From Carcharhinus longimanus (Eukaryota): 64,000 nucleotides of DNA. Position numbers: made by a program. This document shows, piece after piece, positions 48,001 through 54,000 of the stretch (its first letter is position 1; the number at the start of each line of letters is the position of its first letter). The stretch is taken from positions 109,996,445 to 110,060,444 of the forward strand of contig JASCQW010000001.1 in the NCBI GenBank assembly GCA_030264375.1, written 5' to 3'.

Positions 48001-51000
48001 TCAATCAAAAGTACACTTTCCATCTAATCTGCTGCTGTGGTCCCCTGGTGAGTGGCTGTACTGCCCAGCATCTTACGTCCAGGTTGGCAAGTTGCCTACT
48101 CTGAGAACGTTTTGCTTTGTCAGCTTGGAAGCTGCATGATAACAAGGAGGACCCCACGCTGACTCTTCAATGCATGCCTGCCACCTATTTATCATGTGCA
48201 GATAAAGAGTAACTTCCAATAGCTTTCACTTCACAATATCAGGTCCAGCTAAGTAACTCCTCATCAAAACTATCAAGTTCAACACACAGGTGTCTAAAGA
48301 GATATATCTTTTCATTTTTGTACCGGGTCTGAATAAATCATATGCGCCCACAGTCCAAACCTATATGCTGTAGTGTAGCGCGCACAAATCTTTCTCTTTG
48401 CTGCAATTCTCACCTCACATCCTGTTCTTCTGCAAAGAGACATCATGAATTGACTACCAGCTATTTGTACAATCTTTCAGTTATTAGGTATGTCTGAGAG
48501 AGAAAGGAAGAGAGGGATACACTTGTCATCCAGTACAATTACATTTGGTTCAGAGGAAGTAGTCACTGACATTTTATCAGCAGCTGTTAGGAGCATGCAA
48601 GATTGTTCTTACTCTGTGCTGTCTGTACGCTTCTGTTGGGATTTTATTTTGGATGGAACAATTGTTATTGATGACTATATCACCAAGTACTATTCCTAAA
48701 TGAGACATGAAGGTTCATTAATGATGGTCAGCTAATCAACCGCACTTCCCTCTCAGATGTATTCACATGTGAGTTAGTGGGTTCATTTCTGAGGAGACTG
48801 TTGCATCAGCACTAAACCTCGGGAAAGGATATTTAATTCATGGGCAACTGATGTAGCAGGTAGTTGGTAATCAGTTGAAACTGTCATTTCTTAATATCCA
48901 AACCAAAATGATTGGAAACTCTGGTGATTTAAAACGTAAGTGTAAAATGGCAAGATTATGACATTGGATTAATTTAAATGCATGGCAGTAAAAGTAACAT
49001 AGTGCAATTTTTTTTTCAGATACCAGACAGTTAACCAGCACTGCACTGGTTTGATTTACAAAAAAAAACAGTCACATTTTTCTGTCCTTACAATAAATTC
49101 AATCCTCAGTAAGGGGAAGGGTAGGTGGGTGGGGCTGGGAAGGGAGGAGGGGGTGGGAGGAGTGTGCAGACTGAACCCTGACTTAACATCACCAGTTTAA
49201 CATATAACTCAGCCACAGGCTGTTGACCCACATTTCCTTGACTGCTGTCAACTTCACATTACCACATGCCAGCATATGGAAAGATTAAAGAATACTTTGT
49301 TTGTAGAGGTATAGTAGAAAGTTGCTTTTTTTTTGGCAGTCACTCCTAGCTCAGGAGATGGAGTTGGGGTGCTGTGTGTCGGGACCGATCATAGGACAAT
49401 TGCTATTTGCTTCCAGCTTTCCAACAACAACTATCTCATCACTTTTTGCAATTCTTCCCTCAGCCAAGATGGCAGTGGCAGACCCAGTCTATAGAACAGC
49501 TTGGACAGTTCAATATTGTGGTCCTTGTAGTATCGCGAGAGGAATGTTCTAGACTATAAAGGGGAAAAGAGAACAAAAAAGAAACACATCATTCAAACAA
49601 AAGAACCAGCTCATGTTTCAGCTCATCCAAATCTACACAGCTTATACCTCGGAATTGGAATTATAGAATTTAACATTGCGGAGGAGGCCATTTGGCCCAT
49701 CGACTCTGCACCTGCCACAATCCCACCCAGGCCCTATTCCCATAACCCCATGCATTTACCCTAGCTAATCTCCCTGATACTAAGGGGCAATTTAGCATGG
49801 CCAATCCACCTAACCTGCACATCTTTGGACTGTGGGAGGAAACTGGAGCACCCGGAAGAAACTCACGCAGACACAGGGAGAACGTGCAGACTCCGCACAG
49901 ACAGTGACCCAAGCTGGGAATCAAACCCGGGTCCCTGGAGTTGTGAGGCAGCAGTGCTAACCACTGTGCCACCTATATCAGTGTGGCCTCAGCTGAATTT
50001 GGCTGATATGTAAGTGGACTGCTAGCCAGGAAGATATGGAAATTCACTTTTTTTTGGGGGTTAATTGTTTGTGTTGAAGGGTGAGGGTTGCTAGTGCAGA
50101 GGAACAAAAGTTTGTTTTTTAAATGGCCAGGTATCTTATTTTGATGTTAAGCACCCTGAGGCCACAGTGAGATATCAAATAAAACTTTTTGTACCAGGTT
50201 TTGACCCTCTGTTTTCACCCCACACCTCCGTAAAGCACCTCGCACTCACTCCGCGAGTGTGACACATTCCTAAGGCAGCCACTTTCTGTTTTGTCGGCCA
50301 GTTGGTGAGGAATTAGGGGCAAGAACTGTGCTGCATAGGCGTCTAAAGAATTGGATGGAGCATCCAAGCATTGCCAGTCCTAAGCTTGCTGAAACAATGA
50401 GCCATATTTCCCCCGCCGTGAGATCTTAACATTGCCGCAACTGTGCCCGTCAATGAGCAGTTGTCAGCCGCTGTTAATATCGCCTCCACCACGAGCCTGT
50501 TCCGACAGCCCTTTTAGCTTTATGAGCTCAAGCATTATTACTCGATCGGTTGACATGATTTGCACTGAACACTGCTTGCTTTGTGCATGAATTAGTTGTG
50601 GAATGTGAATTTGGTTCTTCTTGCCAAGAGCATGGTGAGCTTGCTGTCCGAGGCTGGCAATAACGGTGGTCTTACTTTCCACAGGCCTGAAGACCATCGT
50701 GGGTGCCCTAATCCAGTCTGTAAAGAAACTGTCTGATGTGATGATCTTGACGGTGTTTTGCCTGAGTGTCTTTGCCCTGATTGGACTGCAATTGTTTATG
50801 GGCAACCTGAGGCAAAAGTGTGTCATTTGGCCCCCCAATCCATCATTTCTTAACGCAACAGATGAAAATGGAACGAGGATTTTTGATTTTACAGACTACA
50901 TCATGAATGACAGTAAGCACTTTACATTCTTGATACATGTTTCTGTTTTTTTTTGTGTGAAGAAAAGCAATGTTTTGGACCCCAACTGTTGACATTATAT

Positions 51001-54000
51001 ATGAATGATTTGGAAGAGGGAACTGAATGCATTATCTCCAAATTTGCAGATGATACAAAGTTGGGTGGGAGAGTGAGCTGTGAGGAGGATGCAGAGATGC
51101 TTCAGTGTGATTTGGACAGGCTGAGTGTGAGGGTATCTACATAACAGATACAGTATAATGTGGATAAATGTGAGGTTATCCACTTTGGGAGCAATAATAG
51201 GAAGACAGATTATTACTGGAATGGGTGTAAATTGAGAGAGGCGGATACTCAGCGAGACCTTGGAGTCCTCGTGCATCAGTCACTGAAAGTAAGCGCGCAG
51301 GTACAGCAGGCAGTAAAGAAGGGAAATGGTATGTTGGCCTTCATCATCAGAGGATTTGAGTATAGGGATAGGGAAGTTTTGCTTCAATTGTACAGTGTGT
51401 TGTAGAGGCCACACCTGGAGTATTGTGAGGAGGTTTGGTGTCTTTATCTGAGGAAAGATGCCCTTGCTGTAGAGGGAATACAGTGAAGGTTTGCCAGACT
51501 GATTCCTGGGATGGCAGGACTGTCAAATGAGGAGAGATTAAGTCGGTTAGGATTATATTCACTGGATTTTAGAAAAGTGAGAGGGATTTCATAGAAACCT
51601 ATAAAATTCTAACAGGTTCATAAAGAATGTTCCTGATGGTGGGGGAGTCCAGAACTAGGGAGTCATAGTTTGAGGATAAGGGGTAAACCTTTTAGAATTG
51701 AAGTGAGGAGAAATTTCTTCACCCAGAGGGTGGTGAATGTGTGGAATTCACTACCATAGAAAGTAGTTGAGGCCAAAACATTTATGTGATTTCAAGAAAT
51801 TAGATACAGCTCTTGGGGCTCAAGGATATGAGGGGAAAGGTGGGATCAGGATATTAATGATCAAAATGAATGGCGGAGCAGGTTCAAAGGGCCAAATGGC
51901 CTGCTGCTTCTAGTTTTTATGGTCATCTGGGATTATGGCAACTTTGCCTTTTACCTCTTATAGTGTCATTGTACGCTTTTGCTACTATACAGCAGTTTGG
52001 CCCAGATTACAGGATACCTATGCTATCCGATTCAGACACAAAATCTATCAACTAATTCAGACTTGATGCTGTGCAGATTAAATTGTTTGTATATTGAGAT
52101 GCGCTGTCACCAAAATATCAACCCTTCCCCCTGCCCCCATCACTGGTAATACTGTATAGAGACAAAAATATATAAAAATATACGTATAGAGAACAAAAAT
52201 CACAGGTTACCCATCTCGGACTTTTGGCTAAGATCAAGTGTAGTATCTGTTTTTATCTTCTGGGCCTTTTGGCTAGGATCGAGTGTGGTGTTGGCATGCT
52301 GTGCTTGGTTGGGGTGAGGAGCATTTCAGCTTCATTTGAGGCAACTTTTGGGGGTGACGTCTCGGCCTTTTGGCGAGGATGCGGGTCCAATCGGGCCTTG
52401 AAGGAGGAGCTATGCCTGCTCCAATCAGCTTTGCTTGTGTGGGTCAGGCCCGGGATGGGGGTTGAGAGCCCTGTCGTGTCAGCTTGGATCGGGAATGTCT
52501 CAACTTGTTGAGATTCTGAATTGGACTTGATTGGATTGAATTGGAATAAAAACAGAGATTAAATCAGAATAAATAAAGATAAGTCATTAAATAAAGAGAA
52601 ACATTGGCAGAAGACTCTGTACTGAAAGAACACACATTTAAAATAATTTGAGAAAAGATAGGTGCATGCACAAGTGGCTTATTTCTGTAATATCAGATCA
52701 CATTATTCTGACAAATTGATTCTCTGTCTCAGTTGCAGTATTTGTACAAAGAAACAGATTAAAGGTTTCTTCGTCCCAGCCTCCCAGTTCAGGCTCCTCA
52801 AGGTAAGCCGTGTCTATGCAACAAGCTCTGACCCCTTTGTCTTCATGAACATTTGGCTAATGCAGCAGTAAGATATTTACTAATGTCTAGTTCTGAGTGT
52901 GTTACCCACTTGTGTGAGCATGTGCCAAGGTGTTGAGGTGTGTTATGCTGAGAGATGATGTGTACACAAATGTGACTAATGTACCATTTGTTTTGGAAGG
53001 TTGATGATTATTTCAAATTCTTCATCCCTCAGTGTGAAAGACTCGAGTTTCACACTAATATGAACTTAAGATCCTAAGGGTCTGATTTATTGATACTTGA
53101 GGCAGCATTATGTACCTTCAATTCCAAGTCCCATCCCTCAATCCCCAGCCAGAGGCTCTCCTTTCTTTGTTGCTCAGGTTCTAGGTGCTAGAATCATGGA
53201 GTGGAATTCTCCCATTCCACTGGGTTTAATGATGGGCAGGCGTGGAGAATCTAGCGACAGCCAAATTATTGGAAATAACATTGCAATTCTCCCAATGGGG
53301 GGTTACTGGCCATTTGGTTTTCCTGGTGGCAGTTGGTGTGAAGGCCATTTGCATTTATTTACATCTCATCCGCCAGCATCCTATCAGGCTTCAATCTATG
53401 TTCTATGTATCTGGACAGGACTGTGCTATGGGACTCATGCTGCCGTTGCAATAAAGGCCTGTAGTTTGACCAGGAGTGTGCTGTGATCTGAGGTGTTTGG
53501 GCAGCCTGGTGAAGATAAGGGGATGCAGTGTTGGGGAAGGCTGTGCAAGGAGGGGGAAAAGGCTGGTGATGTCACGTGGAGGGAAGACCAAAAGGATGGA
53601 AGTTTAGTGAACCCACTAAAAAACTTTCAAACAACAGGGTCAAAGGAATCTCACCTGGTTTACTGAAAGGGGATGCACAAAGACTCCAGGAGATAGAAGT
53701 GCACATCATAGGTGGCTGGAACAGGGTACAGACAGATGGTTGAATCGAGGAACTGACATCTTCTTGGTTCTTGATCCTTCGACCGTTAGGAAGTTTCTCC
53801 TTATCTAATCAGTCCCGACCCTTCATGATTTTGAACATTTCTGTCAAATCTCTTAATTTTTTTCTTTTAATGTGCCAGGATCAAACCTGTCAGTTGAAGG
53901 TAGTGAATGAATTAATTGCCTGTTCACGAAGGTGTCTGAGGGGAACTTGCCTTGCATAATTAATGAGGTTTCAAGTGCAGAATCTATTGCGGATCCCACT

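What the first reader, a model, noticed from the sequence alone, without database searches (positions are those of the whole stretch)
50180..51925. Orphan, intact sodium-channel exon next to PRSS12, abutting a co-oriented 5'-truncated CR1
Seen: a perfect Nav DI-S5 exon (50685-50912) with open frame and both splice sites. Scanning by eye I found no other Nav exon: no exon-1 ORF, no WNWLDF, no RTFRVLRALK upstream in the ~47 kb back to the PRSS12 stop (20 kb of it gap-free), and no CGNSSDAG downstream. A same-strand, 5'-truncated CR1 starts ~55 bp after the donor. Established: vertebrate SCN alpha genes sit in Hox-linked paralogons, whereas PRSS12 neighbours NDST3/METTL14 in mammals. Inference: this is a displaced intron-exon-intron fragment. 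It could have come from a LINE reverse transcriptase switching template onto Nav pre-mRNA (a chimera like U6-L1) or from DNA-level duplication. A symmetric phase 1-1 transmembrane exon is raw material for exon shuffling.
Basis: partly seen in the sequence, partly recalled or inferred. Interest (0 to 1): 0.75.

Follow-up and report, generated by a model that had tools for sequence, protein, structure and literature searches.

The report
Lone sodium-channel exon in shark scaffold
A single, intact exon of a shark Nav1.6-type sodium-channel gene sits alone on a 25-kb piece of a gap-ridden scaffold, and it is most likely the gene's working exon stranded by long introns and scaffolding rather than a relocated copy.

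Summary
Window 50685-50912 (+) is an intact, phase 1-1 exon of 228 nt with AG and GT splice sites. It encodes Nav domain I S5 and the start of the pore loop. It is the only Nav-like coding piece in the 64 kb (tblastn, profile HMM, Pfam).

It is of the SCN8A/Nav1.6 type. It differs at 2-3 of 75 residues from Heterodontus, Chiloscyllium and Scyliorhinus canicula SCN8A-like proteins, and all its differences fall in naturally variable columns.

A CR1-like LINE 3' fragment follows on the same strand, 38-61 nt after the donor. The last exon of neurotrypsin (PRSS12) lies at 2719-3026 (+).

The interpretation, a displaced fragment made by template switching or duplication, could not be tested because no shark genome was searchable. 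No target-site duplication was found, no parent copy could be sought, and the exon shows no excess divergence.

The exon sits on a gap-free contig (30095-55567) joined to its neighbours by 100-N gaps. A public catshark draft places only exons 5N, 5A and 6 on one 59-kb scaffold, so very long introns are normal at this point in the gene. CR1 elements are reported to make up about 19-22% of two shark genomes.

Best reading (about 0.5): this is the working exon, stranded by scaffolding. A real displaced copy stays possible (about 0.3).

The parts
2719..3026 (+). Last coding exon of neurotrypsin (PRSS12), with the stop codon at 3024-3026.
   Evidence: Pfam Trypsin E 1.3e-26 on ORF 2664-3023. AG acceptor at 2717-2718. 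81% identity over 101 aa to the C-terminus of turtle neurotrypsin P0399, which has Kringle, 4 SRCR and Trypsin domains.
29995..30094 (.). 100-N scaffold gap at the upstream end of the exon-bearing contig.
49658..49973 (.). SINE-like interspersed repeat about 700 bp upstream of the exon.
   Evidence: 15 other matches in the window at 72-93% identity, several ending at the same 3' position. No tRNA-like head was found by ARAGORN.
50201..50620 (+). CpG-retaining, GC-richer block directly upstream of the exon. Its role is unexplained.
   Evidence: 16 CpG in 400 nt and CpG o/e 0.66, against a window median of 0.23 and a 99th percentile of 0.66. No Rfam or Pfam match.
50685..50912 (+). Nav domain I S5 / pore-loop exon of SCN8A (Nav1.6) type. 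Phase 1-1, 228 nt. It is exon 6 in the usual SCN numbering, which I recall rather than tested.
50913..50950 (+). Donor site and the first 38 nt of the downstream intron, conserved with the catshark locus.
   Evidence: The read-through tail of S. torazame model P0006 aligns to the window up to 50950.
50951..51925 (+). 5'-truncated CR1-like LINE fragment: the RT C-terminal region with stops and frame breaks, then the 3' untranslated tail.
   Evidence: RT-like ORFs. Protein similarity to two other fragments in the window begins at 50974. DNA similarity of 51410-51773 to 58547-58911 on the minus strand, 67%. The 5' limit of 50951-50974 and the 3' limit near 51920 were read by eye. The family name is recalled.
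55568..55667 (.). 100-N scaffold gap at the downstream end of the exon-bearing contig. Copies of the SINE-like repeat flank it on both sides.
   Evidence: matches at 55448-55567 and 55669-55841.

Best explanation
This is the ordinary working exon of this shark's SCN8A-like (Nav1.6-type) gene, the exon that follows the alternative pair 5N/5A. It lies inside very long introns that CR1 elements have invaded. One such CR1 3' fragment landed 38-61 nt downstream of the donor. The exon looks orphaned because it sits on a 25.5-kb contig tied to the PRSS12-bearing contigs only through 100-N scaffold joins. That contig is misplaced or mis-ordered, so the rest of the gene lies outside the window.

Shown: the exon, its type, its intactness, the LINE, PRSS12, the gaps, and the absence of other Nav exons in the assembled bases.
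Inferred: that this copy is the expressed one, and that the scaffold join is wrong.
For: - Orthologue-grade sequence. The exon differs at 2 of 75 residues from Heterodontus, 3 from two Chiloscyllium species and S. canicula, and 7 from S. torazame. Named galeomorphs differ from each other at 0-7. The first 39 residues are invariant in all 13 named species and in the window.
- Pattern of constraint. All differences from the nearest sequences fall in the 16 variable columns of 75. By my own arithmetic, chance would give this with probability about (16/75)^2 = 0.05 for Heterodontus and about 0.01 for Chiloscyllium. The changes therefore arose under constraint.
- Both splice sites and the frame are intact.
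- The intron start is shared with the catshark locus.
- Long introns are normal here. The S. torazame draft model P0006 carries only 5N, 5A and this exon on a 59,447-bp scaffold.
- The exon's contig ends in 100-N joins, and the downstream one is flanked by repeat copies.
- CR1 LINEs are reported at 21.78% of the whale shark genome and 18.75% of the white shark genome, notably in introns (PMC8455134, passages).
Against: - A misjoin is assumed, not shown. Nothing in the window proves that contig 30095-55567 is misplaced.
- Simple inversion of the contig would not rescue collinearity, because no exon 7 or later lies between PRSS12 and the contig.
- No protein with a 100% identical exon turned up in either search. 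Expression of this exact copy is therefore unconfirmed. Only 15 of the 83 members of the main SCN8A-like cluster could be seen.
- Only four CR1-like fragments related to this one were recognised in 63 kb. A LINE this close to a donor is uncommon for any single exon.
Confidence: 0.5

Rival explanations
1. A real DNA-level duplicate. A piece of about 1 kb or more of the SCN8A-like gene, intron-exon-intron and possibly already carrying the CR1, was copied into the region downstream of PRSS12. It persists there as a young, unexpressed gene fragment.
For: Taken at face value, the scaffold puts the exon 47.6 kb downstream of the PRSS12 stop on the same strand, with no exons 1-5 between them. Intron flanks are present on both sides.
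Against: No parent copy could be sought. There is no excess divergence and no disabling change, so the copy would have to be recent. Nothing in the window marks the boundaries of a duplication.
Confidence: 0.2
2. A retro-chimera. A CR1 reverse transcriptase copying CR1 RNA switched template onto unspliced SCN8A-like pre-mRNA 38-61 nt past the donor, ran back through the exon into the upstream intron, and the product integrated downstream of PRSS12.
For: The foreign piece lies 5' of a 5'-truncated LINE 3' part on the same strand. That is the layout described for U6/LINE-1 and mRNA/LINE-1 chimeras (PMC11838501, passages; PMC4476161, search listing only).
Against: No direct repeat brackets the block, although CR1 insertions may leave none (recalled). 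The layout is identical to a plain intronic CR1 insertion. The chimeras described involve small RNAs or spliced exons, not an intron-exon-intron piece. The skate read-through lacks RT-like sequence after the exon. That shows only that the LINE is not ancient.
Confidence: 0.1
3. The scaffold is right and the gene really lies here. Either exons 1-5 are hidden in the five gaps between 10225 and 30094, or PRSS12 is nested in a giant SCN8A-like intron with the upstream exons beyond the window start.
For: Five N runs lie between PRSS12 and the exon. In the catshark draft, 5N and 5A lie somewhere within 59 kb of this exon.
Against: Five or six exons would all have to fall into gaps. No other vertebrate arrangement of this kind is known to me (recalled). 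A search for papers holding both SCN8A and PRSS12 gave 10 listed papers, none on gene order judging by title and abstract start.
Confidence: 0.1

Closest known systems
SCN8A / Nav1.6 domain I S5 exon of elasmobranchs (NCBI 'sodium channel protein type 8 subunit alpha-like')
   Same: 72-73 of 75 residues match Heterodontus, Chiloscyllium and S. canicula. Similarity stops exactly at both splice sites. The N-glycosylation-type NAT motif in the loop is kept. The best solved structure is Nav1.6.
   Different: It is the only exon of the gene in 64 kb, and it lies downstream of PRSS12 on the scaffold.
LINE reverse-transcriptase template-switch chimeras (U6/LINE-1, mRNA/LINE-1)
   Same: A sense-oriented foreign segment lies 5' of a 5'-truncated LINE 3' part.
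   Different: No target-site duplication was found and no parent locus is known. The captured piece would be unspliced pre-mRNA with 38-61 nt of intron between the exon and the LINE. The LINE is CR1-like, not L1.
Intronic CR1 insertions in shark genes
   Same: A 5'-truncated CR1-like 3' fragment of about 1 kb lies inside an intron. CR1 makes up about 19-22% of two shark genomes, notably in introns (PMC8455134, passages).
   Different: It is unusually close to a donor site.
Scaffold misplacement in short-contig draft assemblies
   Same: Contigs of 0.6-25 kb are joined by fixed 100-N gaps, and contig ends fall in repeats.
   Different: No direct sign of a wrong join could be obtained from the window alone.

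Membership tests
Voltage-gated sodium channel alpha subunit gene, SCN8A type | The sequence matches the ion-transport domain, and SCN8A orthologues match better than other Nav paralogues. | tested here: met
   Pfam Ion_trans E 1.4e-09. Nav1.6 is the top solved structure at 104 bits, against 90 bits or less for Nav1.4, 1.3, 1.2 and 1.1. The top database hits are all named SCN8A or SCN8A-like.
Voltage-gated sodium channel alpha subunit gene, SCN8A type | Exon borders and phases are as in the gene family. | tested here: met
   Alignment to 15 proteins breaks at 50685 and 50912. Phase 1-1 was read.
Voltage-gated sodium channel alpha subunit gene, SCN8A type | Collinear exons for four homologous domains at the same locus. 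| tested here: not met
   The window holds no other Nav exon. The window covers only 64 kb with 949 N, so this result bears on the window, not on the gene.
LINE template-switch chimera | The foreign RNA copy lies 5' of a 5'-truncated LINE in sense orientation. | tested here: met
LINE template-switch chimera | Target-site duplication flanks the whole compound insertion. | tested here: inconclusive
   None among the 16 short direct-repeat families in 49600-52300. CR1 insertions may lack such duplications (recalled).
LINE template-switch chimera | A parent locus elsewhere, and an empty site in relatives, showing that both parts arrived together. | not testable with these tools
   No shark genome collection was open.
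CR1-clade LINE | The reverse-transcriptase C-terminal region and the 3' tail are of CR1 type. | tested here: inconclusive
   No Pfam RT match. Related RT-like fragments occur at about 19215-19685 (-) and about 25046-25490 (+). The CR1 assignment rests on motif order recalled from chicken CR1.
Neurotrypsin (PRSS12) | A trypsin domain ending at the same C-terminus as Kringle-SRCR-trypsin proteins named neurotrypsin. | tested here: met
   81% identity over residues 735-835 of P0399, with its architecture and its names. Only the last exon lies in the window.

The most novel reading that the evidence does not exclude
The scaffold is correct, and the block from about 50180 to 51925 is a single retro-insertion. 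A shark CR1 reverse transcriptase jumped from its own RNA onto unspliced Nav1.6 pre-mRNA. It then planted a splice-competent, phase 1-1 transmembrane exon in the intergenic region downstream of PRSS12. That would be a natural case of LINE-driven exon shuffling caught at an early stage.
Probability: 0.1. Interest if true: 0.65.

Novelty: already known. Interest (0 to 1): 0.25.

Why it matters
If my best reading is right, the finding flags a probable scaffold problem and has no biological consequence. Anyone annotating SCN8A in this assembly should expect the gene to be split over scaffolds.

If the exon is truly displaced, it would be a rare example of an intact, symmetric transmembrane exon moved with its splice sites. 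If a CR1 carried it, it would show that CR1-type elements can shuffle exons through pre-mRNA.

One BLASTN against the same genome would separate these readings.

Tried and rejected
I replaced it with ORF-by-ORF scans.
- Naming PRSS12 with the search for homologous proteins: the list was swamped by multi-domain TMPRSS9-type proteases and contained no neurotrypsin.
- Search for a protein with an identical exon, which would show this copy in a full-length model: the best match was 96%. A second cluster listing repeated the first, so 68 of 83 cluster members stayed unseen.
- Looking for continuation of the skate intron after the CR1 3' end: only chance-level matches.
- Target-site duplications: none convincing.
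- Large duplications or haplotig copies inside the window: none. Only 5282 of 64000 bases have any self-match.
- Rfam over the whole window at gathering scores: nothing.
- tRNA-like SINE heads: none.
- Literature on SCN8A-PRSS12 linkage or shark Nav synteny: nothing relevant. One search found 0 papers.
- The idea that the window comes from a Chiloscyllium species, which would make the exon a diverged paralogue: judged unlikely, because all three differences sit in variable columns. It is not excluded.
- Not checked: any shark genome, reads or RNA-seq. Supplementary files of papers were not consulted.
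Full report
WHAT IS THERE. The window is 64,000 bases with seven N runs, 949 N in all. It is not human sequence: its coding pieces match shark and ray proteins best. I left the N runs untouched.

The exon is as described. AG is at 50683-50684, the exon runs 50685-50912 (228 nt), and GT is at 50913-50914. 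Two bases finish a Gly codon at the start and one base opens the next codon at the end, so it is phase 1-1. Its 75 whole codons match Pfam Ion_trans (E 1.4e-09). The best solved structure is Nav1.6 residues 237-308 (E 1.6e-29, 104 bits; other Nav paralogues score 90 bits or less). The exon numbers 6 and 5N/5A are recalled from the usual SCN convention.

WHICH GENE. A search of longer proteins put elasmobranch proteins named SCN8A or SCN8A-like on top: Chiloscyllium plagiosum 96%, rays and skates 92-93%, and Callorhinchus 84%.

With further cluster members I compared the 75 residues with 13 named chondrichthyans.
- The window differs at 2 positions from Heterodontus francisci.
- It differs at 3 from both Chiloscyllium species and from Scyliorhinus canicula.
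- It differs at 7 from S. torazame and at 5-10 from Heptranchias perlo and the batoids.
- The named galeomorph sharks differ from each other at 0-7 positions.
- The two residues found only in the window (positions 54 and 69) lie in variable columns, and position 69 has eight states among the 13 species.

All differences from the nearest sequences fall within the 16 variable columns of 75. By my own arithmetic, neutral change would do this with probability of about 0.05 or less. The exon therefore looks like an orthologue that evolved under constraint in a shark not among the 13. No database protein carried an identical exon. Only 15 of the 83 members of the main cluster could be listed.

IS IT ALONE? 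Within the assembled bases of the window, yes.
- tblastn with 8 queries at E up to 10 found only this exon.
- tblastn with 17 queries gave strong hits for 15. The other two (P0246, P0268) gave only weak hits, and no second locus fell below E 0.1.
- A profile HMM of 10 elasmobranch SCN8A-like proteins against 3699 six-frame segments gave one hit at E 1.5e-47 and the next at E 0.53.
- Pfam scans of 482 ORFs found only Trypsin at 2664-3023 and Ion_trans at 50639-50989 (139 ORFs of at least 40 aa in 1-10224, and 343 of at least 52 aa elsewhere).

Each exon was searched on its own.

NEIGHBOURS. The trypsin ORF is the last exon of neurotrypsin (PRSS12), at 2719-3026 (+). It is 81% identical over all 101 residues to the exact C-terminus of an 835-aa turtle protein named neurotrypsin, which has Kringle, four SRCR and Trypsin domains.

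Downstream of the Nav exon, RT-like ORFs run on the same strand. Protein similarity to two other RT fragments in the window (about 19215-19685 minus, about 25046-25490 plus) begins at 50974. A DNA match of 67% links 51410-51773 to 58547-58911 on the minus strand. By eye the RT frame reaches back to about 50951, just after a T run, and the element ends near 51920. Pfam did not recognise the fragment. The CR1 label rests on motif order that I recall from chicken CR1.

A SINE-like repeat of about 315 bp (49658-49973) has 15 other matches in the window.

FLANKS. A public draft model from S. torazame (P0006, 150 aa, on a 59,447-bp scaffold) holds two near-identical S3-S4 segments in a row. These are the mutually exclusive 5N and 5A exons. 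They are followed by this exon and a read-through into the intron. That read-through aligns to the window up to 50950, so the first 38 nt of the intron are shared with the catshark gene.

Two points follow. The LINE sits inside intron sequence and is not fused to the exon. In the catshark draft, a 59-kb scaffold yielded a model with only these three exons, so very long introns are normal at this point in the gene.

Two unnamed contig proteins (P0007, P0270) have an exon part identical to that of the skate Leucoraja erinacea. They show weak upstream-intron similarity over about 70 nt and no RT-like sequence after the exon. The LINE is therefore not shared with skates.

TESTS OF THE DISPLACEMENT IDEA. 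No direct repeat brackets the LINE or the exon-plus-LINE block. The upstream SINE copy ends where other copies end, so nothing was inserted into it. The window holds no large internal duplication.

Passages of PMC11838501 describe LINE-1 chimeras with small RNAs or spliced exons, recognised by joint arrival and target-site duplications. Here the piece would be unspliced, and neither hallmark could be shown.

Passages of PMC8455134 give CR1 LINEs as 21.78% of the whale shark genome and 18.75% of the white shark genome, notably in introns. A CR1 in an SCN8A intron is therefore ordinary, although one within 61 nt of a donor is uncommon for any single exon.

VERDICT. The interpretation cannot be decided here, because a parent locus, an empty site, long reads and junction reads all need a shark genome, and none was open.

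The exon sits on a gap-free contig, 30095-55567, tied to its neighbours by 100-N joins, and the downstream join is flanked by repeat copies. I weigh the readings as follows.
- About 0.5: the working SCN8A-like exon, stranded by a wrong or incomplete scaffold.
- About 0.2: a real DNA-level duplicate.
- About 0.1: a CR1 template-switch chimera.
- About 0.1: a correct scaffold with the upstream exons hidden in gaps, or with PRSS12 nested in a giant intron.

A misjoin is inferred, not shown. Simple inversion of the contig would not restore collinearity.

Searches for papers linking SCN8A and PRSS12 or treating shark Nav synteny found nothing relevant. Supplementary files were not seen.

Noticed in passing
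window 52207-52545 (+): U2 snRNA-derived sequence. Rfam U2 scores 42.3 bits (gathering score 46, E 4.1e-06) over 52207-52349. Three tandem copies of the U2 5' stem motif lie near 52213, 52258 and 52360. A (TGAATTGGAT)x2.9 tail follows at 52517-52545. It looks like an snRNA-headed SINE-like unit. SINEs with snRNA heads are described from crocodilians (PMC4494074, passages), and that paper does not contain the word shark. There is no second copy in the window.
   Followed up: partly
window 50201-50620: The block just upstream of the exon keeps 16 CpG in 400 nt. Its CpG o/e is 0.66, at the 99th percentile of the window (median 0.23). It could be a constrained intronic element. There is no Rfam or Pfam match.
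   Followed up: partly
window 49658-49973 and 15 other sites, e.g. 520-717, 4479-4786, 32615-32911, 55448-55567, 55669-55841: A SINE-like family of about 315 bp with copies at 72-93% identity. Copies sit on both sides of the 100-N gap at 55568-55667, so contigs break in this repeat. ARAGORN finds no tRNA-like head.
   Followed up: partly
protein P0006 (S. torazame scyTo_0019189): This public draft gene model strings the mutually exclusive exons 5N and 5A together and then reads through the donor of the next exon into the intron. It is an annotation artefact in the public record.
   Followed up: yes
window ~19215-19685 (-), ~25046-25490 (+), 58547-58911 (-): Three further CR1-like RT or 3' fragments related to the one beside the exon. 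The last one abuts the 439-N gap.
   Followed up: no
window 30201-30800 and 58101-58600: These windows have the highest CpG o/e in the window (0.66-0.85), and both lie close to contig ends. The cause is unknown.
   Followed up: no
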